64,000 nucleotides of DNA from Candidatus Omnitrophota bacterium (GCA_031423615.1 JANPFV010000015.1:14666-78665), one strand, 5' to 3'. Shown: positions 36,162 through 50,641, counted from the first letter of the stretch. Made by a program: numbers and translations. Notes: generated by a model not told the origin, from the letters alone.

Positions 36162-39100
36162 ATGAGCGAAAAATTATTTAGGAGACTAGAAAGATTTCGC
36201 CTACGCAACACATTATCCATATTAGCTTTTTGTAAACAATTAGACACTTCCCCCGTTAATTATCACCGCTGGAAAAAAGCCCGCCACATCGTTGGCCCTT
36301 ACAAAAAAATTCTTGAGGATTTCTTAGATCGCAACGACAACCCTCAAGGCTTTCCACAATCTTCGTATAAAGTCGCGTCCAATATCGCCGTTATCGGTAT
36401 TGCTTGCTATTACCCCGGCGCTAACAATTTGAAAGATTTGTGGGGAAATATCTTAGCCCGGCGGGTTCAATTCCGTCGGATGTTGGACCAAAGACTTCCT
36501 TTGAGTCAATATTACGACGCAGATATTAAGTCCCCCGAAAAAACTTACCTCACAAAAGCCGCTTTCATAGAGAATTTCAAATTTGATTGGGATAGACTCC
36601 GTATTCCCAGAAAAACCGTTGAATCAACCGATATAGCCCACTGGCTGGCTTTAGACACAGCGTTAAAAACGTTTGAAGATGCTGGCTATAAACTCCGCGA
36701 TATTCCTCTCCAAAACACGGGAGTTATCGTTGGCAATACTTTGACTGGTGAACAAACACGATCACAATCTTTGCGTTTGCGCTGGCCATATGTTAATAAA
36801 GTTTTGAAAACGACAATGACTCATTTATCCATGGGTCAAGAGAACCAAAACCGACTTGCCCATGAGATGGAAAAGATTTATAAGTCGGCTTTTTATCCTA
36901 TTACAGAAGATTCTTTGTCAGGCGGTCTAGCCAATACGATTGCTGGCCGGATTTGTAATTATTTAAATTTAAAAGGTGGTGGCTACATTGTTGATGGCGC
37001 TTGTTCGTCGTCCTTGTTGTCTGTTGCGACGGCTGCGGATGCTTTAAAAATGGGAAATATGGATTTGGCTTTAGCTGGAGGAGTTGATGTCAGTCTTGAT
37101 CCATTCGAGTTAGTTGGTTTTGCCAAGGCAGGCGCGTTGGCAAAAGATCAGATGCGTGTTTATGATCAGCATGCCAATGGATTTCTGCCGGGGGAAGGGT
37201 GCGGGTTTGTTCTTTTAAAAAGATTGGAAGATGCGATTAAAGACAAGAATTATATTTATGCAGTAATTAAAGGTTGGGGAATTTCCTCTGATGGCAAAGG
37301 TGGGATTATGGAGCCCTCTTCAAGCGGACAATCATTTGCGATTGAACGGGCTTACAAAGATTTAGAATATAAAATATCCGATGTTGATTTTGTTGAAGGG
37401 CATGGCACGGGGACCGCGAAAGGCGATAGAGTCGAACTCGAAGGAATTGCAACAGCCATTGCCAAAGCGGCACAAAAAAATAATTCGCGCCTCTGTGGTG
37501 TTACATCGTTTAAGTCCATCGTTGGTCACACAAAAGCGGCCGCTGGTGTAGGTGGACTTATTAAAGCCATTTGTGCTGTTAATCAGCGCATTTTACCTCC
37601 TACCGCCAATTGTAGTGAACCCAATGATGTTTTTCAGGATAAAGCAAAAGGTTTATATCCGATTATGCAGGGAAGCATTTTGCTGCAAGGCACAAAAGCA
37701 AAGGCGGGCATTTCTTCGGCGGGATTCGGCGGAATTAATTGTCATATCACGGTTGAATCTAAAGATCTTCCAAAACAAACGTTAAAATCAGAAATAGAAG
37801 AACGCGCTTTATTCGTTAGCAATCAAAAGACGGAAGTTTTTGTTTTTGCTGCGAGGACGACGATTCATTTACAAAAAGTTATTCAAAAGTTTAAGGAAGA
37901 CTTAAGAAACATTAGTATTGCGGAAATGGCCGATTTGGCGGCTTTGTTGAATAAGAAAGCAAGAAATCGCCTGCCTATTAAAGCCTCTATTGTTGCAGAC
38001 TCCCCCGAGAATTTATATGAAGCTTTGAAGTCCCTTGAGAAAGAGATAACTGCAACTCCTGTGGAGGAAGGGCAAATTTATAGAATACAAGCCAATGATA
38101 GCAATACGCATATCATTTTGAGCCATACCGTCAAAACAAAACGTATAGGATTTATATATCCGGGACAGGGATCACAGCGCCTGAATATGACCAGGACTTT
38201 AGTCGAGCGTTATAAATGGGCGAGAGATCTTTTGAATTTATCAAAATTACCGCTTTATGATTTGATTTATAAATCAACAGATAAATTCTCAACCAAAGAA
38301 GATCAACAGGAATTCGAGAAGCAAATAGCGGATACCAAAATTACTCAGCCAGCGATTATTGCCAGTTCATTAATTTGGACAGAATTTCTATCTCGTCTTG
38401 GGATCGATCCTGAATGCGTGGCTGGCCATAGCTTGGGAGAATTGATTGCCTTTTATAGAGCAGGAGCTTTTAGTAAGGAGACATTAATAAAGTTTGCTGA
38501 ATTGCGAGGAAGATTGATGGCTTCCCGGGGTCGCTTTTCGGGAAGTATGGTCAGTTTATTTTGTTCAAAAAACCAAGCCGAAGAATTGATCGGTAAAGTT
38601 ACTGGCAACATTGTTATCGCCAATATCAACAGCCCTACCCAAGTCATTGTTTCTGGTGGTCATAAAGAAATCGAAAGGACAGTAGTATTGGCAGAGAAGG
38701 AAGGAATATCGTTATACCGATTGAATGTCTCCAATGCTTTCCATTCCTCGTTTATGAAAGAGGCTTCAGAAAAAATTCAATCAAGCAAAATATTACCAGA
38801 CAGTTTTAAAGTTGGGGACATTAAAGTTTACTCGGGCATGAGTGCGACTGCGCTGAGCAGTAAGGTTAATTTAAAGGAATATTTTTCAAAGCAAGTCATT
38901 TCACCGGTGAGCTTTGTCGATACGATTGAGGCAATATCGAAAAACTGTGACGTTTTAATCGAAGTCGGGCCGGGGCGGGTGGCAACGGATTTGATAAAGG
39001 CTATTAATAAACAGCAAGCCCCCCTATGTTTGCCTATTGAATCAACCTCACAAAATGATAAGGATTTGAACATTGTTTTAGCAGAATTATTTGTCCGTAA

Positions 39101-42100
39101 CATTGTGATCAAATGGGAAGAATTGTACACAAATAGGTTGATTAAAACGTTTGTCCCGGTTTCGCGAAAGACATTCATCAGGAATCAATGTGAGCATCCT
39201 TTAAAAATTGGTAGTCAAGTTCTTAGGACAGAGATTTCGTCAAATATTGAACTTAAACAAGAAGTTGAAGAAATTAAGCCGCAATCTAGGCCTGTTGCAC
39301 ACGGTCAAGATAACATTGCCGACTTGTTGGTGGACTTGATACAGGCGATGACGGGTTTTGATCGAGGATCAATTTCTTTAAAATCAAGACTTTTAGATGA
39401 TTTAAATTTGGATTCAATTAAAGCGGCTGAATTAATTGGTCAGGCGGCAAAAGTTCTTGGGATCGCCGGACAATTAGATCCTTCGCGGTTTTCCAATCAT
39501 ACTGTGGAACAAATCCGGGATCATTTATATAAATTAGTGGGTGAGACTAAGAGTAGCCAGATTGAGGAGACTACAGCGAGTCTTTTAAAACGTTATCATG
39601 ACAAAAATTGGGTTAGAAATTTTGTTGTTGATTTTAAACAAGAGGAAATAATCAGCCGTAATGTTAATCAATTAAAGAATTTAAAGAGTATCGTCATTCT
39701 GTCTGGTAAAGGTGAAGACGCATTAGTAAATTCGATTAAAAAAGAATTTAGTAATTCCAAAGCCAAATTTCAAAAGATTTATTTTGGCGACAGTCAGCAA
39801 AAATTAGAGAAGTTTGGCACAATAGACTGTCTGATTGTTGTTTTGCCTAAAGCTCCTCAGAATAAAGATTTTGATAAGAATTCTTTCCAAGAAATAGTCG
39901 AACGGCTCCATCAATCTATTAAATTAGCTAATTCAAAGCAAGTCCACAAGGATTCTTTTGTTGTTCTAGTACAGTTTAAAAATATTACATCCAGCTGTTC
40001 AAAATCTATAGCCTCGACACTTTATCTTGAAAGACCGGATTTAAAGGTTCGCATTCTTGATTTCGATGCATCCGCTTCCGAAAAACAAATCTCCCCAAGA
40101 ATTATCGACGAACTTCAAACATACGAGCGTTTTAATACCGTCGAGTATGACCTTAAATTTAGAAGAAGTGTTGGCTATTATCAAAATTCAGAACCGGCAA
40201 CATACAAGAAAAGAAACAGCTCTTGGACTTCCAAAGATGTTGTTTTGGTGACAGGCGGGGCAAAAGGTGTCACCGCGCAATGCGCTTTAGAGTTTGCCCG
40301 CAGTACTAAGGCGCGAATGGTTTTGGTCGGTCGCTCGCTGCTCCCTGGGAATCAGAAAGATGAAAACAATGAGATATTGCAGACCCTGCGTCAATTCGAC
40401 AAAGAAGGCCTAAAGGCTTATTACTATCCATGCGATGTAACTAATGAGAAACAGGTTAGCAAAACGATTCAGGAGATTGAAAAAAAACTTGGCAAGATCA
40501 CTGGATTTGTCCATGGATCTGGTTTAAATAGTCTAAAGCGATTGCAACAAGTTGCTTCTGAGGATGCTTTTGAGGAATCCCTTCCAAAAGTCATGGGTGC
40601 CGTCAATGTTTGTAAGGCCATGTCGCAACCGCCAAAGTTAATTGCTGGGATTACCTCTATTATTGGTTTGACTGGAATGGAAGGAAGCGGTTGGTATGGA
40701 CTGGCCAATGAGGTTTTAAATCTTTATCTTCATCAGTTTAAAAATCAAAATCCACAAACTGATGTTGTAACGATTGCTTACAGCGTTTGGGACGAAATCG
40801 GTATGGGGGCTAAATTAGGTAGTATTGACCGCCTTGCCGAAAAGGGCATTGGCGCTATTCCAGTCGCAGAAGGAGTAAAGCGATTTAAACAATTGATCGA
40901 AAACGATCCGGGCACTCAACAGGTCATTGTAGCAGGCAGACTCGCGGGAATAGATACTTGGAAATCGGCCACTTTAAAAATTAATTATTTTAGATTTATT
41001 GAAAAAGTCGAGTATATTCTGCCCGAGGTAGAACTCATTGCTCGAGTGCACCTTAATATCAAGGATGATGTTTATTTATTAGATCACAACTGGAAAGGTT
41101 CTTTATTGTTTCCGTTTGTATTTGGCTTTGAAGCTATGGCGCAGGGGGTCGCTTATGTCTTAGGGATTGAGAAATTCGATTACATTAAAGCTAAGAATAT
41201 TAATCTTGAACGGCCGATCTCTGTGCCGCAGGAATCAGGAACTACGATAGAGATTCATGCGCAAGTTTTAGAACGCAAGAAAAATGACGATAGCAGAGAA
41301 GTTAAAGTGGAAATTTATTCACAAGAGACAGGCTACAAAGAACCGCATTTTTCAGCAGTTTTTGAGGTTGATAAAAAGCCAAAGACTTTTGTAAAACCAG
41401 AGCATTCTTTGATGAAAAAAGCAAAAAAAGTCATTGATCTAGATATGCAGACCGATATTTATGGACCTATTTTATTCCAAGGAAAATTGTTCCAATGCAT
41501 CGAAAAAATTCACCAACTTCATTACGATAAGGACGATAAAAAAGGACAATGTGTTTTCACGGCCAGCTATAACAAATCAACCCGTATTTTTTTAAAGGAA
41601 AACAAAAAATTTAAAGGCGATTTCTTAATCGGCGACCCCTTTTTTATTGACTCAGTTTTGCAATCGATGCAACTTATTATTCCGCAGGATTTATCGTTAC
41701 CCAGGAAGATAAGATCAATAGAATTAACTCCCTTGAGCAGGAAATTTCACTCTGAAATGATATCCCAGTCTTACATAAAAAAGGTAAATAGTGAATATTA
41801 TAGTGGCGATGCCGAAGTTGCTCTGGGCGGTTTTGTTTTGAAGATTAAGAATTGCCATCTCATAATACTGGAGACCTTGAGCAATAACCTCCCTACTAAT
41901 GATCTTGTAAATCCAGCCTTAAGAGATCAAAAGATAATTCAGACTAGAGTAGACGAGTTTAGTAAAGAATTAAACTTTATTTCTCCCATTATTTGTTGTT
42001 TATATGATGAGCGATTGAAGAATACCAATAAGGATTTGCGGCGTAAAATTGAAGCACCTCTTGTTAAGGTTGCGGTAGAGAAATTATTTGAGAGAAGTAA

Positions 42101-43592
42101 GAAGCCTGTCAAAAGTTTTACACTTAGTTGGCTTAACTCAGGAAAACCAGTTATTGGAGGTAAAAATGTTCAAGACATTGGAGTATCTATTTCACATTAT
42201 GGGGCGTTTCTTATGGTGATCGTTGGTTATGGAGAGCAAGGGTGTGATGTAGAAAATATACAAGAAAGAAACATGGGCCAATGGTTGGGCTTACTGGGAA
42301 AAAACAAATATAAACTTCTAGAACAGATGATTGCTCAAGGTAATAATTTAAATGTAGCAGGCACCTCTATATGGGGTGCAACTGAAGCAATAAAGAAATT
42401 TCATGGTAAATCCGAGAATTCAGTACAGTTTGTTAATGTGAACAGCAAGTATTCCACATTTAAATCGGCAGATTTGAATGAAAATAAACAAGTGATAACT
42501 TTTGTGATTCGACAAAAGATAATTATTTCTTTAATTGTTAATTTTGTAATTTCAAAAGAAATTGGCAGGGAAGCAATAAGGCTCGGATATAACGCTAATG
42601 TTTTTAGGATAGATCTTCAGTTAACTGGATCGCAAGAACAGCCGGTTTATATCCAAAGATTTCCTATAACATTTAAGAATGTAAAAGACTTAGGTAAAAG
42701 AGTTTATTTTGCTGATTATTTTGACTGGATTGGTGAAGTAAGAGAATATGGTTTATATCCAATCAAACACGAGTTGATTAGTCTATTCGAAACCGGCAAA
42801 TGGGGAATGGCAACAAATCATGTTAAGTTGAGAATATTAGGTGCGCTGAGGATAGATGATATTGTCGAGGCGAGGTTATGGCTGAATCGTGTTTCTGGAG
42901 AAAAGAACTCTGTATTAGATTTAATGTTTGAATGGTTTAGAGTAACATCCAATGACGAATATGAAAAAGTAGCGCTTAGCGAGCAACGTGTTTCATGGAT
43001 TCAGATAACTGGCCATGGAGAAGGGAAGATTGAGTCTTTCCCAAAATCTATAAATGAATTTATTGACATGTTGGGACCGCGAAAAAAGCATGTAGATAGG
43101 GATGAGAATCAAGCGAGGTATAGAGAATTAAATCTGGGAGAACAAAGATATCTTTTAGAAAGCACGAAGAATCTTCTTTTAACAGAAGAGATTTTCTCAA
43201 CGAGCCTTGAAGAATCGAATCTGGTAGGCAATATTTATTTTTCAAATTATGCTAAATGGCTAGGAAAAACCAGAGATAATTACTTCAGGGATTTGTTACC
43301 GAGTTATTATTTAGGCAAAGGAGAAAAGGGAGAATTTATTTGTTTAGATTGTGAAATATTTCATTTAATGGAGGCTATGCCTTTCGATAAGATAAGAGTC
43401 AAAATGTTTTTAAAGAAAGCTTTTCAGTATGGACTCGATTTTTATTTCGAGTTTTTAAAATATAAGGATGGCCAGGAGTCGAAACGATTGGCTTATGGCA
43501 CTCATAGGGTAGTATTTGGTAAAAGCGATAAAGGTAAAATTGTTCGGTATGATTTGCCAGTAGAAATTTTAAAAGTAGTAAATAATACTTAA
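36162..43592 (+). CDS. iterative type I polyketide synthase with enediyne-PKSE-like architecture (KS-AT-ACP-KR-DH-PPTase) and a C-terminal tandem hotdog thioesterase-like extension (2476 aa)
   Basis: KS active site VDGACSSSL with HGTGT and GH motifs; AT GHSLGE; ACP LNLDSIKAAEL; KR VVLVTGGAKGVTAQCA; DH HNWKGSLLFP (HxxxGxxxxP); PPTase VSISHYG, GCDVENI, WGATEAIKK; two C-terminal 4HBT-like segments; GGAG RBS 6 nt upstream of the ATG. Confidence 0.85.
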   Translation: MSEKLFRRLERFRLRNTLSILAFCKQLDTSPVNYHRWKKARHIVGPYKKILEDFLDRNDNPQGFPQSSYKVASNIAVIGIACYYPGANNLKDLWGNILARRVQFRRMLDQRLPLSQYYDADIKSPEKTYLTKAAFIENFKFDWDRLRIPRKTVESTDIAHWLALDTALKTFEDAGYKLRDIPLQNTGVIVGNTLTGEQTRSQSLRLRWPYVNKVLKTTMTHLSMGQENQNRLAHEMEKIYKSAFYPITEDSLSGGLANTIAGRICNYLNLKGGGYIVDGACSSSLLSVATAADALKMGNMDLALAGGVDVSLDPFELVGFAKAGALAKDQMRVYDQHANGFLPGEGCGFVLLKRLEDAIKDKNYIYAVIKGWGISSDGKGGIMEPSSSGQSFAIERAYKDLEYKISDVDFVEGHGTGTAKGDRVELEGIATAIAKAAQKNNSRLCGVTSFKSIVGHTKAAAGVGGLIKAICAVNQRILPPTANCSEPNDVFQDKAKGLYPIMQGSILLQGTKAKAGISSAGFGGINCHITVESKDLPKQTLKSEIEERALFVSNQKTEVFVFAARTTIHLQKVIQKFKEDLRNISIAEMADLAALLNKKARNRLPIKASIVADSPENLYEALKSLEKEITATPVEEGQIYRIQANDSNTHIILSHTVKTKRIGFIYPGQGSQRLNMTRTLVERYKWARDLLNLSKLPLYDLIYKSTDKFSTKEDQQEFEKQIADTKITQPAIIASSLIWTEFLSRLGIDPECVAGHSLGELIAFYRAGAFSKETLIKFAELRGRLMASRGRFSGSMVSLFCSKNQAEELIGKVTGNIVIANINSPTQVIVSGGHKEIERTVVLAEKEGISLYRLNVSNAFHSSFMKEASEKIQSSKILPDSFKVGDIKVYSGMSATALSSKVNLKEYFSKQVISPVSFVDTIEAISKNCDVLIEVGPGRVATDLIKAINKQQAPLCLPIESTSQNDKDLNIVLAELFVRNIVIKWEELYTNRLIKTFVPVSRKTFIRNQCEHPLKIGSQVLRTEISSNIELKQEVEEIKPQSRPVAHGQDNIADLLVDLIQAMTGFDRGSISLKSRLLDDLNLDSIKAAELIGQAAKVLGIAGQLDPSRFSNHTVEQIRDHLYKLVGETKSSQIEETTASLLKRYHDKNWVRNFVVDFKQEEIISRNVNQLKNLKSIVILSGKGEDALVNSIKKEFSNSKAKFQKIYFGDSQQKLEKFGTIDCLIVVLPKAPQNKDFDKNSFQEIVERLHQSIKLANSKQVHKDSFVVLVQFKNITSSCSKSIASTLYLERPDLKVRILDFDASASEKQISPRIIDELQTYERFNTVEYDLKFRRSVGYYQNSEPATYKKRNSSWTSKDVVLVTGGAKGVTAQCALEFARSTKARMVLVGRSLLPGNQKDENNEILQTLRQFDKEGLKAYYYPCDVTNEKQVSKTIQEIEKKLGKITGFVHGSGLNSLKRLQQVASEDAFEESLPKVMGAVNVCKAMSQPPKLIAGITSIIGLTGMEGSGWYGLANEVLNLYLHQFKNQNPQTDVVTIAYSVWDEIGMGAKLGSIDRLAEKGIGAIPVAEGVKRFKQLIENDPGTQQVIVAGRLAGIDTWKSATLKINYFRFIEKVEYILPEVELIARVHLNIKDDVYLLDHNWKGSLLFPFVFGFEAMAQGVAYVLGIEKFDYIKAKNINLERPISVPQESGTTIEIHAQVLERKKNDDSREVKVEIYSQETGYKEPHFSAVFEVDKKPKTFVKPEHSLMKKAKKVIDLDMQTDIYGPILFQGKLFQCIEKIHQLHYDKDDKKGQCVFTASYNKSTRIFLKENKKFKGDFLIGDPFFIDSVLQSMQLIIPQDLSLPRKIRSIELTPLSRKFHSEMISQSYIKKVNSEYYSGDAEVALGGFVLKIKNCHLIILETLSNNLPTNDLVNPALRDQKIIQTRVDEFSKELNFISPIICCLYDERLKNTNKDLRRKIEAPLVKVAVEKLFERSKKPVKSFTLSWLNSGKPVIGGKNVQDIGVSISHYGAFLMVIVGYGEQGCDVENIQERNMGQWLGLLGKNKYKLLEQMIAQGNNLNVAGTSIWGATEAIKKFHGKSENSVQFVNVNSKYSTFKSADLNENKQVITFVIRQKIIISLIVNFVISKEIGREAIRLGYNANVFRIDLQLTGSQEQPVYIQRFPITFKNVKDLGKRVYFADYFDWIGEVREYGLYPIKHELISLFETGKWGMATNHVKLRILGALRIDDIVEARLWLNRVSGEKNSVLDLMFEWFRVTSNDEYEKVALSEQRVSWIQITGHGEGKIESFPKSINEFIDMLGPRKKHVDRDENQARYRELNLGEQRYLLESTKNLLLTEEIFSTSLEESNLVGNIYFSNYAKWLGKTRDNYFRDLLPSYYLGKGEKGEFICLDCEIFHLMEAMPFDKIRVKMFLKKAFQYGLDFYFEFLKYKDGQESKRLAYGTHRVVFGKSDKGKIVRYDLPVEILKVVNNT

Positions 43593-43615: not shown

Positions 43616-45796
43616 ATGAACTCAGTGGCACATTTACAGATTGTTTTATTTTCAGTTTCCGGGTTGATTGTTGGCCTGACGAGTATAATTTTAGCGTTAA
43701 TTTTAATTCTTTATGGAAAATCTAAACTTCATAGAATTTTTGCATTATTTAATTTTGCTGTTGCGTGGTGGGGTATTGCTGCATTCTTTATTGGTAAGTC
43801 AACCGATGCTGGTCAAACATTACTGCTTTTTAAAATAGCTCATATAGGAATTATTTTTATTGCAGTATTTTTTTATCATTTTTCCTGCATTTTTGCGGGT
43901 ATTAATCGAAAATTCTTAATTTCTTTCGCATATTATCAAGGCATCTTTTTTAGTCTACTGGCAATCTTTGATTTGGTCCCTTTTATTTCTAAAGTGGAAA
44001 AGATCAAAGACTCTCTTTTTTACCTACAATCTTCAGGTGTTTATCCTATTTTCTTCTCTCTATGGATTTTCTTGGTTTTTGTTGCTTTAGTTGAGACATT
44101 TCTTCAGTTTCGAATAGAAAAGAATGCTATTAAAAGAAATCAAGAACTATATCTTTTATTTTGGTTTTGTGTAGGGTTTTCCGGTGGTATTAGTAACTTC
44201 TTGCCTGCTTTTCAAATAAATATTATTCCTTTCGGAAATTTTACTATTCCAATTTATTGTGGCGTTGCCTCATACGCTATTTTAAAGCATAGCCTTTTGG
44301 ATATAAAAATTGTTGTTACTCGATTTGGTGTTTTCTTTTTGGTTTATTTTTTTGTCTTGGGTATCCCATTTGGTTTAGAAGCATGGGGACAGGAATGGTT
44401 AAAAGGGATATTGGGAGCGTTTGGAAGTTGGATTCCTATGCTGGTCCTTTTGGGGTTTGCTACTATAGGCCCATTTATTTATCTTTATCTCCAACGGAAA
44501 GCCGAAGAAAATATTCTGCAAGTCGAACAGGGGACTCAGGATTCCCTGAAGCAGGCTTCCTATGGCATGAACACCATCCATCATCTCGACAAATTATTAA
44601 ATCTTATCGTTAATGTTGTCGTTAGAACACTGCGCTTAGATTCGGCAAAGATTTTTTTGTTAGACCGTGATGCACAGAGCTATATTTTAAAAGCCTCGGA
44701 AGGTCAGCAAGAAAAAGTATTGCTGGTGGGGGACCCGTTAATTTTGGAGTTAAAGAGAAAGCAATATCCCTTAGTCTATGATGAAATTAAAATGCTGACC
44801 GATGGAGGAGACAAAACTTTATTAACTGTTGAATCGCAAATGCGAGATTTATCAATCAGTGTCATCGTTCCCATCGTGCTTAACAATAGTTTATTGGGCT
44901 TTTTGACTTTAGGGGAGCGCAAATCAAAAGCCATGTATACAAGAGGTCTATTAAATACATTATCAATTCTTGGGAATCAGGCTGGCCTTGCTATCGATCG
45001 ATGCAATTATATCGACGCTGAAGCAAAACGCCTCGAAGCGGAAGGACTAAAAGAAAGAATGGTCTCTTTAGACCATATGGCCAGTTCAATGGCTCATGAA
45101 ATCGACAATCCGATGCATATTATTCGCTCCTCTTTGTCTTTCCTCAAAGATTTTGTTTTAAAAGATGCTCGCGTTTCCGTTTTGCCCCAGGAAATAAAGA
45201 ATGATTTCCAGGAAGCCATTGTGCGCAGCCTTCACGCCGGAGATAGAGTGTCGGGTATGATCAAAGCCATTTTGGATTATTCGCGGATGGGAACAGGAAA
45301 GTTGGAGTCGGTGCGGATTGGTGAAGCATGGGACGGCTTCCTCCAACTTATCCAGCCGCAGATTAGAGAAGAGAAAGTAATATTTATAAAAGAGATTGAG
45401 AATGATTTGCCGCCCGTCTTGGGGGATCGTGTTCAGTTGGAAGAAATTTTTATGAATTTTGTCCGGAATTCGCTTCACGCGATCAAACGGAATGCAGACA
45501 AGAAAATAACCCTTAAGATTTTTAAAAAAAGCAATGACATCGTCCGCATTGAATGTTCCGATAATGGTTATGGCATCCCAAAGGAAATCATTAATGATAT
45601 TTTTCTTTCTTCCATGACCACGAAGGGCTCAAGCGAAGGCACAGGGCTGGGTCTCTATCGGGTAAGAAAAATTGTCGATCTTTTTCGGGGAAAAGTATGG
45701 GCCGAATCGGAAGGCCAGGAAAAAGGTGCTACTTTCATCGTGGAATTACCCGTGTATGAGAATAGTAAAAGTGATAATGACGGAGAAGCCGTTTAA
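43616..45796 (+). CDS. sensor histidine kinase with N-terminal multi-TM sensor region, GAF-like domain, HisKA and HATPase_c
   Basis: about 8 hydrophobic segments in the first 300 aa; H-box MAHEIDNPMHII; N-box FVRNSLHAI; G-boxes DNGYGIP and GTGLGL. Confidence 0.85.
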   Translation: MNSVAHLQIVLFSVSGLIVGLTSIILALILILYGKSKLHRIFALFNFAVAWWGIAAFFIGKSTDAGQTLLLFKIAHIGIIFIAVFFYHFSCIFAGINRKFLISFAYYQGIFFSLLAIFDLVPFISKVEKIKDSLFYLQSSGVYPIFFSLWIFLVFVALVETFLQFRIEKNAIKRNQELYLLFWFCVGFSGGISNFLPAFQINIIPFGNFTIPIYCGVASYAILKHSLLDIKIVVTRFGVFFLVYFFVLGIPFGLEAWGQEWLKGILGAFGSWIPMLVLLGFATIGPFIYLYLQRKAEENILQVEQGTQDSLKQASYGMNTIHHLDKLLNLIVNVVVRTLRLDSAKIFLLDRDAQSYILKASEGQQEKVLLVGDPLILELKRKQYPLVYDEIKMLTDGGDKTLLTVESQMRDLSISVIVPIVLNNSLLGFLTLGERKSKAMYTRGLLNTLSILGNQAGLAIDRCNYIDAEAKRLEAEGLKERMVSLDHMASSMAHEIDNPMHIIRSSLSFLKDFVLKDARVSVLPQEIKNDFQEAIVRSLHAGDRVSGMIKAILDYSRMGTGKLESVRIGEAWDGFLQLIQPQIREEKVIFIKEIENDLPPVLGDRVQLEEIFMNFVRNSLHAIKRNADKKITLKIFKKSNDIVRIECSDNGYGIPKEIINDIFLSSMTTKGSSEGTGLGLYRVRKIVDLFRGKVWAESEGQEKGATFIVELPVYENSKSDNDGEAV

Positions 45797-45808
45797 AAGG
45801 AGCAAATT

Positions 45809-46213
45809 ATGGATCGGTCCAAAATAAAGATTTTGGTCGTCGATGATGAAGAGGATATTACATTTTTTACCGCCAAGATATTGCAGTACGATGGGTTTCA
45901 GGTTTATAAAGCCTTAGATGGAGCTTCGGCATTGGCAGTCTTTGAAAAGGAATGTCCGCATATTTGTCTCTTGGATGTTCACTTGGGATATTCCAAAATA
46001 GATGGAATGGAAGTTTTAGAAAAAATAAGGAAATCGGGCAGCGACACGGAATGTATTATGATTACTCGGATCACAGATCAAGAAACGATGGCAAAAGCAA
46101 AGACCCTAGGCGTAAAGGAATATTTATTAAAGCCATTGGCCATGGAGGATTGGTTAAAGAAGGTGCATGCTGTCGCAGAAAATATCGACGAGAGGAGTGC
46201 GCCCCATGGCTAA
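45809..46213 (+). CDS. single-domain response regulator (REC only)
   Basis: ILVVDDEEDI...CLLDVHLG...MITRITDQ...LLKP. Confidence 0.85.
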   Translation: MDRSKIKILVVDDEEDITFFTAKILQYDGFQVYKALDGASALAVFEKECPHICLLDVHLGYSKIDGMEVLEKIRKSGSDTECIMITRITDQETMAKAKTLGVKEYLLKPLAMEDWLKKVHAVAENIDERSAPHG

Positions 46214-46709
46214 TCCTCTTAACAATGAGCAGGCTTTGTATGACCAAATCAAGAATGAGAAAATCACCGTTCCATTGGTCATTTGGGATTTGATGTATCG
46301 CTATCTGGGTGATGAAATATCCGCGATGACGCAAATTACTTTGTCTTATTGGCGGTGCAATGAGCCGATCCCCGTCTCTGATGCCGGCAAGCTGCTTGAC
46401 CATTCCAAGAAGATCAACACCGTGATCAGAAAAATTATTTATCATGACGAGATTAAAGATGAAAATGAAAAAATTGGGGAATTAAGAAATATTAACACCA
46501 AACTTCACCCGATTCTTAATGAACTGTTCTTTCATTATATCGGTAATGATCTCTATGGAATTGACTTGATTGTCGCGTCCTATATTGATGAATCAGATCC
46601 GCAGCCGGTTCCGGTAGAAATGGCCCGTAAGATTTTAAATAAAACTGCCAGCATGAAATTGTTTATGGATAGATTAAGGGAAGCGACCAATCAGGAAGTA
46701 AGAATTTAG
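46206..46709 (+). CDS. hypothetical protein (167 aa) between two receiver genes
   Basis: start at the ATG at 46206 (MANPLNNEQ), overlapping the previous gene by 8 nt; no motif recognised. Confidence 0.45.
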   Translation: MANPLNNEQALYDQIKNEKITVPLVIWDLMYRYLGDEISAMTQITLSYWRCNEPIPVSDAGKLLDHSKKINTVIRKIIYHDEIKDENEKIGELRNINTKLHPILNELFFHYIGNDLYGIDLIVASYIDESDPQPVPVEMARKILNKTASMKLFMDRLREATNQEVRI

Positions 46710-46718
46710 GAGACAGGG

Positions 46719-47489
46719 ATGATTAAGATATTGATTGTCGACGACGAACCGGAAATTTGCGAATCGATTAAAAAACCTTTTGCTTACCTGGGGTTTACGG
46801 TGTTTACGGCGACCACAGCCAAGAAAGCCTTAAACATTTTTGAGAAGAATAAACCCAAGATTATTTTCTTGGATATTATTATGCCGGATAGGGATGGTTT
46901 GGAATTGCTTAAGAAGTTTAAAGAGCTGGATCCGAAAGTCATTGTCATCATGGTCACGGCTAAAGGCGGCGAGGAAACCCGTAAGAAAGCGATTGCGCTC
47001 GGCGCCGATGATTTTATGACCAAGGGCTTTAGTTTTGAGGATTTGCGGGATATTTCCCGGAAAAAAATTGAGATGCTTCTGGGAAAAGCCGGTCATATGC
47101 AAAAACCGCGCATTCTAATTGTCGACGATGAAGATCAGGCCCGCGATAATTTACGAAATTTTATAACTCCATTGTATGAATGCGATATTGAAGAAGCGCA
47201 GGATGGCGAATCGGCGATTGAAAAGGTCCAAAAGATGCAGCCGGATGTTGTTTTATTAGATGTGAGAATGCCCGGGGTGGATGGAATTAGGGCCATTGAA
47301 GAAATCAAGGAGATCAGTCCGGATTCGCGTATTATTGTGATCAGCGGTCACGGGACGCCCGATGTTGTTTCAAAAGCCATGGCTTTGGGAGCGTTTGATT
47401 ATTTGGTCAAGCCCATTGACTTTGAACTGTTTCCGGAAAGATTTGAACCGGCCCTGATTAGTATGGGAAAACTTATCAAAAAGACTTAG
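46719..47489 (+). CDS. tandem-receiver response regulator (REC-REC, no output domain)
   Basis: first REC ILIVDDEPEI...FLDIIMPDRDG...MVTAKG...DFMTKG; second REC ILIVDDEDQA...LLDVRMPGVDG...VISGHG...DYLVKP. Confidence 0.85.
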   Translation: MIKILIVDDEPEICESIKKPFAYLGFTVFTATTAKKALNIFEKNKPKIIFLDIIMPDRDGLELLKKFKELDPKVIVIMVTAKGGEETRKKAIALGADDFMTKGFSFEDLRDISRKKIEMLLGKAGHMQKPRILIVDDEDQARDNLRNFITPLYECDIEEAQDGESAIEKVQKMQPDVVLLDVRMPGVDGIRAIEEIKEISPDSRIIVISGHGTPDVVSKAMALGAFDYLVKPIDFELFPERFEPALISMGKLIKKT

Positions 47490-47537
47490 TCCCAATTTTT
47501 GTCAGAGGGTTTAATTTATAGAAAATTGGGATTACCT

Positions 47538-47577
47538 CGATAGACCGTTGGTCTATCGACTGTTCGGGCGGATTTTT
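47538..47577. terminator. candidate bidirectional terminator between convergent genes
   Basis: perfect 9-bp inverted repeat cgatagacc-gtt-ggtctatcg, followed 13 nt later by a T6 run. Confidence 0.35.
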
Positions 47578-47595
47578 TCTATTGAAAAATCCGGG

Positions 47596-48171
47596 TTAAT
47601 AGCGGCCGGGGTTTTCAATAGCTATAAATTTGCATTTGACTTTTGAAATATTTTTGAATTGATGTGATTTGGTGCTGTCAAAAGAAACGCTGTCCCCGCC
47701 TTTTAAAGTCATTTCTTTATCTGCAATGACGCAGACCAGTTGTCCCATGACGACATAAACCAATTTTTCATATTTCCCTCGGCCCTGAGGAGCGCGGTCT
47801 ATCGGAGTTTGCCCCGCTGGCTGAAGGACGAACTCTTGCGCTAAAAAACTGTGATTAGGGTTATTGATTATACTCGATGAAGCAGTCGGGCCGAAGATGT
47901 AGCCGCCGCTTTTTTCCCGTTCGCGCTTCCTTATTATGAGGCATTCTTCGAATTCGGTGTCCTTAAACAGTTCTTTGAGAGGAATATTTAAAAGGTAGCA
48001 AAGTGTGTTTAGTGATGAAAATTTATGGGTATGTCCGGCTTCGATCCTATTGATGGTAGGGATAGAGATACACTTCTGGGGACCTAAAATCACCAGTCCC
48101 CGCTCATAAACATCTCGCACGGTTAAGTTTAAATCCTTTCGGATTTTTTTAATCTTTTCGTAATATTTCAT
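47596..48171 (-). CDS. XRE-family HTH transcriptional regulator with C-terminal cupin domain
   Basis: start set at the internal ATG at 48171 (MKYYEKIKKIRKDLNLTVRDVYERG), where an RBS-like GAAGGG lies upstream (the track ORF runs to 48243); HTH_XRE segment at the N-terminus; cupin-like segment GQLVCVIADKEMTLKGGDSVSF. Confidence 0.7.
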   Translation of the reverse strand: MKYYEKIKKIRKDLNLTVRDVYERGLVILGPQKCISIPTINRIEAGHTHKFSSLNTLCYLLNIPLKELFKDTEFEECLIIRKREREKSGGYIFGPTASSSIINNPNHSFLAQEFVLQPAGQTPIDRAPQGRGKYEKLVYVVMGQLVCVIADKEMTLKGGDSVSFDSTKSHQFKNISKVKCKFIAIENPGRY

Positions 48172-48244
48172 CTTTTTCCCTTCACTACGTTTATACAATA
48201 ACCAAGCATTTATGTCAATCATAATTAGCACAAAAGTTCTCAAT

Positions 48245-48272
48245 TTTGATATATTTTATAAAATATATCAAA
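48245..48272. promoter_or_regulatory. perfect 28-bp palindrome TTTGATATATTTTATAAAATATATCAAA, candidate operator
   Basis: reverse-complement identity checked by hand; sits in an AT-rich divergent promoter region about 75 nt upstream of the XRE-cupin gene. Confidence 0.5.
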
Positions 48273-48323
48273 TATAAATTAGCATTAATAATTTAATTGT
48301 ATGCAATGTAATAACTTATGAGA

Positions 48324-48374
48324 TTTATAAAATATATCAAAATATGACATATAAATTTGCACTTTGATATATTG
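48324..48374. repeat. second, split copy of the operator motif (TTTATAAAATATATCAAA ... TTTGATATATT)
   Basis: the 18-mer at 48324-48341 is identical to 48255-48272; the 11-mer at 48364-48374 is identical to 48245-48255; it overlaps a candidate TTGCAC-N18-TATCTT promoter for the small ORF at 48410. Confidence 0.4.
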
Positions 48375-48409
48375 CATGTTATCTTTGAGATAAGGGAGGC
48401 GAGAATAAT

Positions 48410-48583
48410 ATGATTGAAGTCCTATTGAAATTCAGCGCAATGCTTAAAGTTCTCGGTTTGCCGTTCTTATTTCTCGTGACTTTAAATTCTAGAAAGCAGT
48501 TAAAGACACTGGAAAAATATTCTAATCATGACGATGACGTTCCTGGTGACAATTTTCCCCATGTCTTTATGAGCAAAAATTAA
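48410..48583 (+). CDS. small hydrophobic protein (57 aa, MIEVLLKFSAMLKVLGLPFLFLVTLNS...)
   Basis: strong RBS GGGAGG 8 nt upstream of the ATG; TAA at 48581-48583; below the ORF-track size cutoff. Confidence 0.4.
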   Translation: MIEVLLKFSAMLKVLGLPFLFLVTLNSRKQLKTLEKYSNHDDDVPGDNFPHVFMSKN

Positions 48584-48617
48584 TAATGCAAAGCACATTT
48601 TGAGAGGAGGTCCACGC

Positions 48618-48845
48618 ATGCACGCGCTATTGATATTGGAAAATGACAATGTTACAAATTTGCGAGTTCTTGTCACGGTAAGAAATAAGAAACTTAAAAA
48701 AGAAATTATTTTCTTACTTCAGGAAAATCGCGTGCGGGAGGCCTTTGAACTTTTAAAATCGCGCGCCGAAGTCAGGGCCTATCTTCCAAAGGGAAGTAAG
48801 CTACTGGTGACACCAGAAATTATTTTATTTGAAGATTTGTTGTAA
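48618..48845 (+). CDS. hypothetical small protein (75 aa)
   Basis: GAGGAGG RBS upstream of the ATG at 48618 (MHALLILENDN...); the track ORF starts at 48600. Confidence 0.4.
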   Translation: MHALLILENDNVTNLRVLVTVRNKKLKKEIIFLLQENRVREAFELLKSRAEVRAYLPKGSKLLVTPEIILFEDLL

Positions 48846-48969
48846 AAATTATTTCGTCTGTACAGACAAAACTCATTTCTCAAATCCCCCCTTTCCTATA
48901 AAATGAGTTGTAATAAATAAGTTTTGACATTTTTTAAGCGCTTTGTTTCTGTGGTATACTGTCAACGAT

Positions 48970-49608
48970 ATGGTCAAGAATCATCCTAAAATATTGGTGG
49001 TCGACGACGAGCCCGACGTGACAGCCTATTTTCAGAAGTTCTTTGGAAGAAAAGGATTCTTTGTCAACACGACGGCCAGCGGTAAAGATGCTTTAGGCAT
49101 GATCAAAGCATCCAAACCGGACCTGGTTTTTCTGGATTTAACTTTGGCGGAGATGACCGGACGGCAAGTGCTGCAAGCCTTGCGAAAATTTGATCGAGAA
49201 ACCAAGGTTATCGTGATTACCGGCCATACTCTGAATTCTGAAGCGGAGAGCGAAGAATTCAGGGCCTTAGGCATCAGTGCTTATTTAAATAAACCGCTGA
49301 GTTTGGATGAGGTTGATAAGATGGCCAAAATGATTTTGGGGGATAATTATCCGTTAGCGCAATTTGATCAAAATATTCCGACCCAGGAAATAAAACAAGC
49401 TTTATCGACGGCAACTCACAAATTGCGCAATCTCCTCGGCAATATTAAAGGGGAGTGTCAAGTTTATCTGATCCATAAAAAGTCGGGTAAGTACAAAAAC
49501 AAATCAAAAGATGATGTGCAGAAAATGTCTGATGTTATTATCGAAGATGTCGTGGTTACGATTAATAAGGTGATGGAAGTTCTTAATGGTGTTAAAAGCG
49601 AGAAATAG
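48970..49608 (+). CDS. response regulator receiver domain with C-terminal extension of about 90 aa (possible Hpt-like segment)
   Basis: REC ILVVDDEPDV...FLDLTLAEMTG...VITGH...AYLNKP; C-terminal STATHKLRNLLGNIKGE resembles an HxxKG Hpt motif (inference). Confidence 0.7.
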   Translation: MVKNHPKILVVDDEPDVTAYFQKFFGRKGFFVNTTASGKDALGMIKASKPDLVFLDLTLAEMTGRQVLQALRKFDRETKVIVITGHTLNSEAESEEFRALGISAYLNKPLSLDEVDKMAKMILGDNYPLAQFDQNIPTQEIKQALSTATHKLRNLLGNIKGECQVYLIHKKSGKYKNKSKDDVQKMSDVIIEDVVVTINKVMEVLNGVKSEK

Positions 49609-49610
49609 CA

Positions 49611-49985
49611 ATGCCAAAACTTTTAGTTGTCGATGATGAAATAGACATCGTTGAGGTCACAAAACGATTTTTTAAAAAGCGTGGCCTCGACGTTTTTACG
49701 GCGAGCGACGGGGAAGAAGCTCTCCGGGTGATTAAAGAGGAAAATCCAGATTTGGTTTTGCTGGATTTCAATCTGCCGATTTTAAGCGGGTTAGAAATTT
49801 TAAAAAAGTTAAGAAATGAACTGAAATTGAATACGAAAGTCATTATGGTCACAGGTTTTGAAACGGAAATGGTCATCAATGAAACCCAAGGCTTAGCTCT
49901 GGAGGGATGTATTCATAAGCCTCTGGATTTGGAAAAACTGGAAGAAGTTGTTATGTCCGCGTTAAGCAAGCCTAGCGATAAATGA
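49611..49985 (+). CDS. single-domain response regulator (REC only)
   Basis: LLVVDDEIDI...LLDFNLPILSG...MVTGF...CIHKP. Confidence 0.85.
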   Translation: MPKLLVVDDEIDIVEVTKRFFKKRGLDVFTASDGEEALRVIKEENPDLVLLDFNLPILSGLEILKKLRNELKLNTKVIMVTGFETEMVINETQGLALEGCIHKPLDLEKLEEVVMSALSKPSDK

Positions 49986-50082
49986 GCATCCTGGATCCCG
50001 CCTTTCCCGGCGATACTTTTTAAAAAGTGAGCCGGCTTAAGAATTCAAAATTGATGTAACCGATTTAATAAATAAAAAGAAA

Positions 50083-50111
50083 AGGCAACCTGATTAACAG
50101 ATTGCCTTTTC
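50083..50111. terminator. bidirectional rho-independent terminator
   Basis: aaaaag-AAGGCAACCTG-attaa-CAGATTGCCTT-ttct hairpin between convergent genes, flanked by A-run and T-run. Confidence 0.5.
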
Positions 50112-50125
50112 TATAGAGCGATGAT

Positions 50126-50641
50126 TTATTGACTCATGGCTTCTTCGTTGATTTGCGACTCTGCTAATTCGGTCAGAGTTTCATCGGTATTTTCTTCTTC
50201 TTCGATGGTCTCCTTTAATAAAGTTAGATCTTCCTGATAGCCGAGAGCGGCGGCAAATGTACATAAAGAACCATAGGCCGCGATTTCGTAATGCTCGACT
50301 TTTTGCGCCGCAACGATTATGCCGGCATCAAGTACGCTGGGAGCTGCATCTTCCTCAAGCATTTTTGCGCCTTCCTTCAACAGACCTTCCATGCCCTCAC
50401 ATTTCGGTCCGGTCGAACTTTCATCAAGGCGCTTGAAAATTTTCTCCAAGCGGACAATTTGGTTTTCTGTTTCTGCCAAATGTTTTTCAAATCCCCGTTT
50501 AAGTTCGGGATTATTTGCGGCTCTTGCCATTTTGGGCAAGGCCTTGGTGATTTGTTTTTCTGCACTCAGAATATCCTTGAGTTCATGGACATATAAATCA
50601 TGCAATGTTGCCAGTTCTTCTTTTTTCATGTCTTTTTTCAT
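50126..50641 (-). CDS. ferritin-like DUF892 (YciE/YciF family) protein
   Basis: LHDLYVHELKDILSAEKQITKALPKMA...LEKIFKRL four-helix-bundle pattern typical of YciE/YciF. Confidence 0.75.
   Translation of the reverse strand: MKKDMKKEELATLHDLYVHELKDILSAEKQITKALPKMARAANNPELKRGFEKHLAETENQIVRLEKIFKRLDESSTGPKCEGMEGLLKEGAKMLEEDAAPSVLDAGIIVAAQKVEHYEIAAYGSLCTFAAALGYQEDLTLLKETIEEEENTDETLTELAESQINEEAMSQ

What the first reader, a model, noticed from the sequence alone, without database searches (positions are those of the whole stretch)
43616..49985. Dense phosphorelay-like island: one multi-TM GAF histidine kinase and five receiver domains in four proteins, none with a DNA-binding output
A kinase (N-terminal sensor of about 8 TM segments, then GAF) is followed by a stand-alone REC, an unknown 167-aa protein translationally coupled to it, and a REC-REC protein. 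After a divergent XRE-cupin regulator come a REC with a C-terminal extension of about 90 aa and another stand-alone REC. In the extension, STATHKLRNLLGNIKGE resembles an Hpt phosphotransfer motif. None of the receiver proteins carries a DNA-binding output, suggesting a multi-step phosphorelay or phosphate-sink network whose output is unknown. Its position next to the PKS suggests it may regulate it.
Basis: partly seen in the sequence, partly recalled or inferred. Interest (0 to 1): 0.55.

Follow-up and report, generated by a model that had tools for sequence, protein, structure and literature searches.

The report
Omnitrophota phosphorelay cassette tied to carrier-protein lipid synthesis
This is a real gene cassette, conserved across the uncultivated phylum Omnitrophota, in which a membrane sensor kinase signals through several receiver proteins and an undescribed four-helix protein with no DNA-binding response regulator, and it probably acts directly on neighbouring polyketide/lipid enzymes.

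Summary
Window 43616-49985 holds a HisKA_7TM-GAF histidine kinase and five intact receiver (REC) domains in four proteins, none with a DNA-binding output. It also holds a 167-aa unknown protein ("X") whose start overlaps the stop of the first REC by 8 nt, and a divergent XRE-cupin regulator.

The Hpt reading is corrected. The C-terminal extension of the 48970 protein is a kinase-less DHp/HisKA-like helical hairpin with an invariant His, not an Hpt.

X is a new family with no Pfam, NCBIfam or PDB match (149 cluster representatives among 1.84 billion proteins). It is an internally duplicated four-helix bundle with one invariant, apparently surface-exposed His. A single-domain REC gene lies immediately upstream of X in all 23 distinct cassettes examined. 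In relatives X is fused at its C-terminus to an acyl carrier protein (24 of 65), to REC-REC, or to PAS-GGDEF-HD-GYP.

The invariant core is kinase-REC-X, and every named genome hit is Omnitrophota. Acyl or lipid enzymes usually lie just upstream of the kinase: PKS, ACP-KS, HMG-CoA reductase, 2-hydroxyacyl-CoA dehydratase, MBOAT. Two of these enzymes are themselves fused to a REC.

Best reading: a multi-step phosphorelay with a post-translational output onto carrier-protein-dependent lipid/polyketide synthesis. It is a new variant of a known kind. The mechanism is inferred, not shown.

The parts
36162..43592 (+). Type I PKS (KS-AT-ACP-KR-DH-hotdog thioesterase). It ends 23 nt upstream of the kinase and is the likely functional target or partner of the cassette.
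   Evidence: Pfam, (PP-binding 26.5 bits at residues ~1055-1122; PKS_DH_N; 4HBT_2). PKS-kinase adjacency is conserved in L008 and L011.
43616..45796 (+). Sensor histidine kinase: polytopic HisKA_7TM sensor (~8-9 TM), GAF, HisKA (H-box AHEIDNPM), HATPase_c.
   Evidence: Pfam; hydropathy; orthologues lie upstream of X in 18 of 20 loci where this could be assessed.
45809..46213 (+). Single-domain receiver REC1. All phospho-acceptor residues are intact, and its stop overlaps the start of X.
   Evidence: A REC lies immediately upstream of X in all 23 distinct cassettes, and also 3 nt upstream of an X-PAS-GGDEF-HD-GYP gene in L029.
46206..46709 (+). X: a new 167-aa family. It is an internally duplicated helical hairpin forming a four-helix bundle, with invariant His110, Asn114 and Asp115 and a conserved MANPL N-terminus. 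It is the proposed partner of REC1.
   Evidence: No Pfam, NCBIfam or PDB hits. AF2 pLDDT 86.8, pTM 0.82. No significant fold match. Duplication: hhalign 98.4%, E 4e-15. Invariant residues. Fusions.
46719..47489 (+). Dual-receiver protein REC-REC with both Asp sites intact. In relatives it is fused to X (P0209) or split into two single RECs.
47596..48243 (-). XRE-HTH + cupin regulator, divergent from the second operon. The ORF runs to the TTG at 48243, but the probable start is the ATG at 48171 (191 aa, matching 188-193-aa homologues).
   Evidence: Pfam (Cupin_2 38 bits; HTH_19 24 bits); conserved position in 12 loci.
48245..48372 (.). Probable operator: four copies of TTTGATATAT. One pair forms a perfect 28-bp palindrome at 48245-48272; the other pair lies at 48332-48372. 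They overlap promoter-like hexamers on both strands.
   Evidence: (4 matches, all here; expected 0.2).
48410..48583 (+). s57: a conserved 57-aa micro-protein with a hydrophobic N-terminus, a conserved PGDNFP motif and a hypervariable C-terminal tail.
   Evidence: RBS visible; alignment of 6 loci; no family.
48618..48845 (+). s75: a conserved 75-aa protein of unknown function.
   Evidence: RBS visible; alignment of 9 loci; no family.
48970..49608 (+). REC-DHp: a receiver plus a kinase-less DHp/HisKA-like helical hairpin. His150 is invariant in H[KR]L[KR]NLLGN, and there is no ATPase domain.
49611..49985 (+). Single-domain receiver REC5, 2 nt after REC-DHp. The Asp site is intact, and Cys replaces the aromatic switch residue (CheY Y106 position).

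Best explanation
The island is the long form of a conserved signalling cassette. All of its named genome hits are Omnitrophota.

Shown by the data:
- The invariant core is a 7TM-GAF histidine kinase, a single-domain receiver (REC1), and X.
- X is a previously undescribed four-helix bundle built from a duplicated helical hairpin, with one invariant, surface-facing His.

Inferred mechanism:
1. The kinase autophosphorylates and phosphorylates REC1.
2. REC1~P engages X at the conserved stripe E106-H110-G113/N114-Y117, most likely transferring the phosphoryl group to His110. X would then act as a single-chain functional analogue of a DHp/Hpt four-helix bundle.
3. X passes the signal to the dual receiver REC-REC, to which it is fused in some relatives.
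4. A second operon (s57, s75, REC-DHp, REC5) is controlled by the XRE-cupin regulator through the TTTGATATAT operators. It adds a kinase-less DHp that lacks the acidic H+1 residue needed for kinase activity but keeps the H+4 Asn needed for phosphatase activity. This DHp would act as a second His station or phosphatase, tuning receiver phosphorylation in a RedCDEF-like way.

The output is post-translational, not RR-driven transcription. It is aimed at carrier-protein-dependent acyl, polyketide or lipid synthesis, which here means the ACP-containing PKS directly upstream.
For: - Domain content and intact catalytic residues.
- Synteny across 23 distinct cassettes, with REC always directly upstream of X.
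- REC-X coupling also holds outside the cassette, in L029.
- X always sits at the N-terminus and is fused to ACP (24/65), REC-REC, or PAS-GGDEF-HD-GYP/PilZ.
- X fold and duplication.
- His110 is invariant even in distant fusions.
- Helical-wheel analysis places His110 opposite the hydrophobic face.
- The REC extension is DHp-like.
- Roles of the H+1 acidic residue and the H+4 Thr/Asn in HisKA: PMC3510030.
- Precedent for kinase + dual receiver + non-autophosphorylating kinase-like protein + single receiver with no DNA-binding output: PMC2755868.
- Enzymes next to the kinase are PKS, ACP-KS-FAD oxidase, HMG-CoA reductase (once REC-fused), REC-fused 2-hydroxyacyl-CoA dehydratase, MBOAT, and a NAD_binding_4 reductase-like protein.
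- Operator repeats.
Against: - No phosphotransfer has been measured.
- X shows no detectable homology to Hpt or DHp (hhalign 1.8% against the cassette DHp; no Hpt Pfam hit; no Hpt among the top 50 Foldseek matches).
- Short-form cassettes (L014, L017) end at X-ACP with no downstream receiver, which fits a terminal effector better than a relay intermediate.
- Fusion of a phospho-His module to ACP or GGDEF would be unusual.
- 3-4 of 24 fused ACPs lack the phosphopantetheine Ser, so acyl carriage is not universal.
- Two X-GGDEF genes have no REC immediately upstream.
- Exposure of His110 rests on a helical-wheel estimate, not on coordinates.
- The link to the PKS rests on adjacency and fusion only.
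Confidence: 0.4

Rival explanations
1. X is not phosphorylated. It is a docking or adaptor domain that binds the phosphorylated single-domain receiver and allosterically controls whatever is attached to it (ACP, REC-REC, c-di-GMP enzymes) or, when free-standing, a carrier protein in trans. The extra receivers and the DHp-only protein act as phosphate sinks or phosphatases that shape REC1~P levels.
For: - X is the N-terminal domain of otherwise unrelated output architectures.
- Short-form cassettes end at X-ACP with no further receiver.
- There is no homology to Hpt or DHp.
- From general knowledge, single-domain receivers commonly act by binding partner proteins (CheY-FliM, DivK, CpdR).
Against: The one residue invariant across the whole superfamily is a surface His flanked by invariant Asn and Asp. 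That pattern is more typical of a catalytic or phosphotransfer site than of a docking surface. The gene order kinase-REC-X-REC-REC also mirrors a His-Asp-His-Asp relay.
Confidence: 0.3
2. X is a cytoplasmic four-helix-bundle sensor domain that binds a small ligand, for example an acyl or pantetheine-linked intermediate, or a metal. It would feed metabolic state into the pathway, and REC adjacency would reflect joint regulation rather than direct contact.
For: - X has the N-terminal position typical of sensor domains, ahead of PAS-GGDEF-HD-GYP.
- Fusion to ACP and the acyl-thioester enzymes nearby would fit acyl sensing.
- Asp115 and Asp/Glu37 are predicted to face the core.
Against: His110 and the conserved stripe are predicted to be solvent-exposed. 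There is no match to known ligand-binding bundles such as hemerythrin, CZB or ACBP. The strict REC-X gene coupling, with overlapping or near-abutting reading frames, argues for direct partnership.
Confidence: 0.12
3. The island is a generic branched two-component network that happens to lie beside a PKS. Its true output is transcriptional, through the XRE-cupin regulator or a distant DNA-binding response regulator, and it has no special relation to lipid or polyketide synthesis.
For: The only DNA-binding protein in the island is the conserved XRE-cupin with clear operator repeats. In some loci the flanking genes are unrelated (T2SS/pilus genes, toxin-antitoxin inserts).
Against: - X-ACP fusions occur in 24 of 65 homologues.
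- Extra ACP genes sit inside the cassette (L004, L008, L010).
- Receivers are fused directly to HMG-CoA reductase and to 2-hydroxyacyl-CoA dehydratase beside the kinase.
- PKS-kinase adjacency occurs in three lineages.
Confidence: 0.1
4. The island is a peptide-signalling (quorum-sensing-like) system. In this reading s57 is a secreted or processed peptide precursor, with a conserved leader ending in PGDNFP and a variable tail, and it is sensed by the polytopic kinase as in Agr-type systems.
For: s57 has a conserved leader-like region followed by a hypervariable 5-13-residue tail in six loci. The kinase has a polytopic membrane sensor.
Against: The island has no AgrB-like peptidase, no exporter and no LytTR regulator. 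s57 is absent from short-form cassettes. Its hydrophobic N-terminus fits a small membrane protein equally well.
Confidence: 0.05

Closest known systems
RedCDEF 'four-component' system of Myxococcus xanthus (PMC2755868)
   Same: Both have a membrane histidine kinase, a dual-receiver protein, a His-bearing kinase-like protein that cannot autophosphorylate and acts as phosphoacceptor and phosphatase, and single-domain receivers. Neither has a DNA-binding response regulator, and in both the output works through protein-level phospho-flow.
   Different: - Here the non-kinase His module is a receiver fused to a bare DHp hairpin with no ATPase domain at all.
- There is an extra obligatory partner, X, with no Red counterpart.
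- The cassette is tied to ACP, PKS and lipid genes and to an XRE-cupin regulator.
- Homology to the Red proteins beyond the generic domains was not tested.
Classical His-Asp-His-Asp phosphorelays (KinA-Spo0F-Spo0B-Spo0A; ArcB; Sln1-Ypd1-Ssk1), from general knowledge
   Same: Both have a kinase, then a stand-alone receiver, then a four-helix-bundle protein with a single exposed His, then further receivers. The gene order here mirrors that flow.
   Different: X has no detectable homology to Hpt (PF01627) or to Spo0B/DHp. It is a single chain built by hairpin duplication. The terminal receivers have no output domain. In relatives X is fused to ACP or to c-di-GMP enzymes.
HisKA/DHp domain of histidine kinases (PF00512)
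   Same: The extension of the 48970 protein is a two-helix hairpin with an H-box-like motif (H-x-L-x-N-L-L). It aligns to the cassette kinase DHp with His on His.
   Different: It falls below the Pfam threshold (13-15 bits against 26.9). It has no HATPase_c domain. H+1 is Lys or Arg rather than Glu or Asp, so autokinase chemistry is not expected (PMC3510030). It sits C-terminal to a receiver, not to a sensor.
Hpt domain (PF01627)
   Same: For X only: a helical bundle of comparable topology class with one conserved exposed His.
   Different: Neither X nor the REC extension gives any sequence hit. No Hpt structure appears among the top 50 Foldseek matches. The H-x-x-K-G signature is absent.

Membership tests
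Two-component histidine kinase (HisKA + HATPase_c) | DHp with a phospho-acceptor His, plus a GHKL ATPase domain | tested here: met
   43616-45796: HisKA 34.4 bits and HATPase_c 71.6 bits, both above cut-off; H-box AHEIDNPM.
Response-regulator receiver (PF00072) | (beta/alpha)5 fold with the acidic pocket, phospho-Asp, Thr/Ser and Lys | tested here: met
   Five domains score 79-207 bits. The equivalents of D12, D13, D57, T/S87 and K109 are present in all five.
Hpt (PF01627) | Match to the Hpt profile, including the H-x-x-K-G motif on a four-helix bundle | tested here: not met
   No Hpt hit at E<=1 for the REC extension (18 members) or for X (65 members). No Hpt among the top 50 PDB fold matches of X.
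HisKA/DHp (PF00512), for the REC extension | Helical hairpin with an H-box His that matches the HisKA profile | tested here: inconclusive
   15 of 18 members give sub-threshold HisKA hits (best E 1e-3). hhalign to the cassette kinase DHp gives 78.7% probability, E 1.7e-5, with His on His. AF2 gives a hairpin at residues 140-172 and 180-210. The profile finds no PDB chain with E below 0.26.
HisKA/DHp, for X | Detectable homology to a DHp hairpin | tested here: not met
   hhalign of the X C-half against the cassette DHp gives 1.8% probability, and against the REC extension 0.6%. Only 3 of 65 members give weak HisKA hits.
Multi-step phosphorelay (His-Asp-His-Asp) | Demonstrated phosphotransfer from a receiver to a second His protein and on to a terminal receiver | not testable with these tools
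   This needs in vitro phosphotransfer profiling. Only the parts list is consistent with it.
Multi-step phosphorelay (His-Asp-His-Asp) | Terminal response regulator with an effector (usually DNA-binding) domain | tested here: not met
   No REC protein of the island has an output domain other than the DHp-like hairpin.
RedCDEF-type four-component system | Kinase + dual receiver + non-autophosphorylating His protein + single-domain receiver encoded together | tested here: met
   The architecture is present. This is an analogy of parts only; orthology and phospho-flow were not tested.
Chemotaxis-type CheY phosphate sink | CheA, CheW and MCP genes accompanying the CheY-like receivers | tested here: not met
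   None of the Pfam-scanned genes between 27378 and 63522 is CheA, CheW or an MCP.
Agr-type peptide quorum sensing | AgrB-like processing protease and a LytTR response regulator alongside the peptide and the polytopic kinase | tested here: not met
   No such domains in the island.

The most novel reading that the evidence does not exclude
X is the founding member of a new class of monomeric histidine-phosphotransfer or receiver-coupling domains. It would have arisen independently of Hpt by duplication of a helical hairpin. It would let a single-domain receiver drive non-transcriptional outputs directly: an acyl carrier protein (and so polyketide or lipid assembly lines), c-di-GMP enzymes, or further receivers. 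Together with the receiver-fused HMG-CoA reductase and 2-hydroxyacyl-CoA dehydratase found in relatives, this would mean Omnitrophota control lipid and polyketide biosynthesis by direct phospho-signalling onto enzymes and carrier proteins.
Probability: 0.3. Interest if true: 0.8.

Novelty: new variant of a known kind. Interest (0 to 1): 0.58.

Why it matters
Two-component systems almost always end in a transcription factor. Direct phospho-control of carrier proteins or of lipid/polyketide enzymes is essentially undocumented.

This cassette offers three things to work with:
- A compact parts list that can be expressed and tested: kinase, receiver, X, REC-REC, REC-DHp.
- A new domain family with a single invariant His, which is easy to test by mutation.
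- Natural fusions (X-ACP, X-REC-REC, X-GGDEF, REC-HMG-CoA reductase) that say which proteins should touch each other.

It would also be a first functional handle on signalling and envelope-lipid or polyketide regulation in Omnitrophota, a widespread uncultivated phylum of very small cells.

If instead X proves to be a plain adaptor, the finding is still a well-defined lineage-specific signalling module, but not a surprising one.

Tried and rejected
- Hpt in the REC extension or in X: rejected by Pfam scans of whole families and by fold search.
- X as a single-chain derivative of a DHp: hhalign does place His110 on the kinase phospho-His, but only over 14 columns at 1.8% probability. It remains an idea, not evidence.
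- Fold search of the REC-DHp model: dominated by the receiver (PorX, EutV, Spo0F), so uninformative about the hairpin.
- Profile searches of X and of the extension against PDB sequences: nothing below E 0.26.
- A weak X-profile hit to a eukaryotic oxysterol-binding-like protein (P0279, seven repeated stretches): judged a short-motif or assembly-repeat artefact.
- Literature searches (Omnitrophota + polyketide synthase; HisKA_7TM; DHp-only receivers): nothing describes this cassette.
- Exact look-up of the window's own contig to name the organism: failed. Cluster look-up gave no names.
- Promoter and terminator scans: at background frequency overall. They were used only to note overlap with the operator repeats.
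- Agr-like and chemotaxis-like readings: rejected because the defining partner genes are absent.

Full report
**1. Observation**

| Coordinates | Strand | Content |
|---|---|---|
| 43616-45796 | + | Kinase: HisKA_7TM (residues 19-230), GAF (about 323-462), HisKA, HATPase_c |
| 45809-46213 | + | Single-domain receiver, REC1 |
| 46206-46709 | + | 167-aa protein with no family ("X") |
| 46719-47489 | + | REC-REC |
| 47596-48243 | - | HTH + Cupin_2 regulator (probable ATG start at 48171) |
| 48970-49608 | + | REC with an extension of about 85 aa |
| 49611-49985 | + | Single-domain receiver, REC5 |

- A hydropathy scan of the kinase gives about 8-9 membrane segments.
- The start of X overlaps the REC1 stop (cATGGCTAAt). 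The gaps between PKS, kinase, REC1, X and REC-REC are 23, 12, -8 and 9 nt.
- All five receiver domains keep the acidic pocket, the phospho-Asp, Thr/Ser and Lys (alignment with CheY).
- No receiver protein has a DNA-binding domain.
- The rest of the 64-kb window holds only one other receiver (3929-4627).

**2.

- The divergent intergenic region carries four exact copies of TTTGATATAT, found nowhere else in the window (0.2 expected). One pair forms a perfect 28-bp palindrome. The repeats overlap promoter-like hexamers on both strands. This is the expected look of an XRE-type operator controlling both the regulator and the second operon.
- Two small ORFs with good ribosome-binding sites lie here: 48410-48583 (57 aa) and 48618-48845 (75 aa). 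They are conserved in sequence and position in 6 and 9 other loci respectively, so they are real genes.

**3. The C-terminal extension is a kinase-less DHp, not an Hpt**

- About 49 full-length homologues exist. His150 is invariant within H[KR]L[KR]NLLGN.
- AlphaFold2 predicts a receiver followed by a two-helix hairpin at residues 140-172 and 180-210.
- Fifteen of 18 family members give weak HisKA hits, and none gives an Hpt hit.
- A profile-profile comparison with the DHp of the cassette kinases aligns both helices with His on the phospho-His (78.7% probability, E 1.7e-5).
- There is no ATPase domain.
- In HisKA kinases, the acidic residue next to the His is needed for kinase activity, and the Thr/Asn four residues later is needed for phosphatase activity (PMC3510030). 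This family has Lys/Arg at H+1 and keeps Asn at H+4.
- I therefore infer a phosphoacceptor or phosphatase role rather than a kinase role.

**4. The unknown protein X**

- X has no Pfam, NCBIfam or PDB-sequence match.
- An exhaustive profile search finds only 149 cluster representatives among 1.84 billion proteins.
- AlphaFold2 gives a confident four-helix bundle (pLDDT 86.8, pTM 0.82). No PDB fold match has E below 0.1, and no Hpt appears among the top 50 matches.
- The two halves are homologous (hhalign 98.4%, E 4e-15), so the bundle arose by duplication of a helical hairpin.
- Invariant residues are M1, A2, E8, I15, W27, H110, N114, D115, F153 and L157. His110 stays invariant even in distant multidomain relatives.
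- A helical-wheel estimate puts His110 opposite the hydrophobic face, within a conserved stripe E106-H110-G113/N114-Y117. Asp115 faces the core.
- Homology of X to a DHp is not supported (1.8% probability).

**5. Comparative genomics**

Homologues of X come from Omnitrophota MAGs. Seventeen loci were found among GTDB species representatives, a few of them under other taxon labels (names also).

Across 23 distinct cassettes:
- A single-domain receiver lies immediately upstream of X in every case.
- A HisKA_7TM-GAF kinase lies upstream in 18 of the 20 loci where this could be assessed.

Two forms exist:
- **Short form:** kinase-REC-X(-ACP), followed by unrelated genes (L014, L017).
- **Long form**, as in the window: adds REC-REC or two single receivers, the divergent XRE-cupin, s57, s75, REC-DHp and more receivers. 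Sometimes an extra ACP gene sits among them (L004, L008, L010).

X is always N-terminal. Its fusions are:
- A C-terminal ACP in 24 of 65 homologues. Twenty of these keep the phosphopantetheine Ser and 3-4 do not.
- REC-REC (P0209, in an otherwise identical cassette).
- PAS-GGDEF-HD-GYP or PAS-GGDEF-PilZ. One of these genes sits 3 nt after a receiver gene (L029). Two others do not.

**6. Link to acyl, polyketide and lipid chemistry**

The genes just upstream of the kinase are:

| Upstream gene(s) | Loci |
|---|---|
| Large PKS | window, L008, L011 |
| ACP + ketosynthase + FAD oxidase | L001, L019 |
| Two FAD amine-oxidase-like enzymes | L022/L023 |
| HMG-CoA reductase | L027 |
| HMG-CoA reductase fused to a receiver | L006 |
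| Receiver-fused 2-hydroxyacyl-CoA dehydratase with its partner and activase | L024 |
| MBOAT acyltransferase | L025 |
| NAD_binding_4 reductase-like protein | L003 |

The window's PKS is KS-AT-ACP-KR-DH-hotdog thioesterase. Its ACP domain is the only carrier protein detected in the region scanned. They point to post-translational control rather than transcriptional control.

**7. Mechanism**

*Shown:* the parts, their conservation, their fusions and their intact catalytic residues.

*Inferred:*
- The kinase phosphorylates REC1.
- REC1~P engages X at the His110 stripe.
- I judge phosphotransfer to His110 somewhat more likely than pure docking. The only superfamily-wide invariant is an exposed His flanked by invariant polar residues. 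The gene order mirrors a His-Asp-His-Asp relay. X-REC-REC fusions exist.
- X signals to REC-REC and, by analogy with the X-ACP fusions, to a carrier protein, which here would be the PKS ACP.
- The XRE-cupin-controlled operon supplies REC-DHp and REC5 as a second His station, phosphatase or sink, comparable to RedD/RedE/RedF of Myxococcus (PMC2755868).

*Weak points:*
- X has no homology to known phosphotransfer domains.
- Short-form cassettes have no terminal receiver.
- Some X fusions are not next to a receiver.
- Some fused ACPs lack the phosphopantetheine Ser.
- There is no experiment of any kind.

**8. Rival explanations**

- X as a non-phosphorylated adaptor for REC1~P: 0.30.
- X as a ligand- or acyl-sensing bundle: 0.12.
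- A generic network with transcriptional output that is only coincidentally beside the PKS: 0.10.
- An s57-based peptide-signalling system: 0.05.

**9. Comparison with known systems, and novelty**

The island works like a multi-component phosphorelay of the RedCDEF or Spo0 type. It is not a member of the Hpt family (tested, not met). Its extension is only a sub-threshold HisKA relative. X belongs to no described family.

I found no paper describing this cassette. I rate it a new variant of a known kind. It is a branched two-component network with a new obligatory partner domain and an unusual, probably enzyme- or carrier-protein-directed, output.

Interest is moderate to high for signalling specialists. 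It is limited by the complete absence of experimental data and by the uncultivated host.

Noticed in passing
L006 2596-4179; L024 3495-5060: In relatives, receiver domains are fused directly to metabolic enzymes beside the cassette kinase. L006 has REC-HMG-CoA reductase. L024 has REC-2-hydroxyacyl-CoA dehydratase D-component, followed by a second HgdD and a BcrAD/BadFG activase. Direct phospho-control of these enzymes would be unusual.
   Followed up: partly
window 48410-48583: s57 is a 57-aa ORF with a hydrophobic N-terminus, a conserved (D/E)xPGDNFP motif and a hypervariable tail of 5-13 residues in six loci. It could be a small membrane protein that modulates the kinase, or a peptide precursor.
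   Followed up: partly
window 48618-48845: s75 is a 75-aa protein conserved in nine loci (MxALLVLxN...EAFxLLK...TLFEDML). It matches no family, and its function is unknown.
   Followed up: partly
window 36162-43592: The PKS is a single 2476-aa KS-AT-ACP-KR-DH protein ending in a 4HBT hotdog thioesterase. Its closest NCBIfam partial match is PfaA-like. By eye, the first ~55 residues resemble an HTH, and residues ~1950-2100 carry Sfp-like phosphopantetheinyl-transferase motifs that Pfam did not detect. From memory, the overall layout recalls iterative enediyne or PUFA-type synthases. This was not tested.
   Followed up: partly
X-ACP homologues P0062, P0068, P0081 (DA) and P0075 (DT): In three to four of 24 X-ACP fusions the phosphopantetheine-attachment Ser is replaced. 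This suggests the ACP domain can act as a pure interaction module in some lineages.
   Followed up: partly
L017/L023 (JACQXK) and L019/L022 (JACROS): Two Omnitrophota genomes each carry two paralogous kinase-REC-X-ACP cassettes. In L014 and L017, an AbiEii/AbiEi toxin-antitoxin pair is inserted between the kinase and the REC-X pair.
   Followed up: no
window 49611-49985: REC5 has Cys at the position of the CheY Tyr106 aromatic switch, and the N-terminal domain of REC-REC has Lys-Gly where Lys-Pro is usual. These may mark sink or intermediate receivers.
   Followed up: no
window 47537-47600: Two hairpin-forming inverted repeats (CGATAGACC-GTTG-GGTCTATCG and GGATTTTTTC-TATT-GAAAAAATCC) lie between the convergent REC-REC and XRE-cupin genes. 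They are probably a bidirectional terminator. This was seen by eye and was not picked up by the terminator scan.
   Followed up: no
window 50126-50641 (-) and 51100-55494 (+): The island ends at a DUF892 ferritin-like protein with a strong terminator hairpin (50078-50112), followed by an Lhr-type helicase. GC content rises from about 0.37-0.42 in the PKS and island to about 0.46-0.50 beyond, so the PKS plus cassette may be a compositionally distinct block.
   Followed up: no
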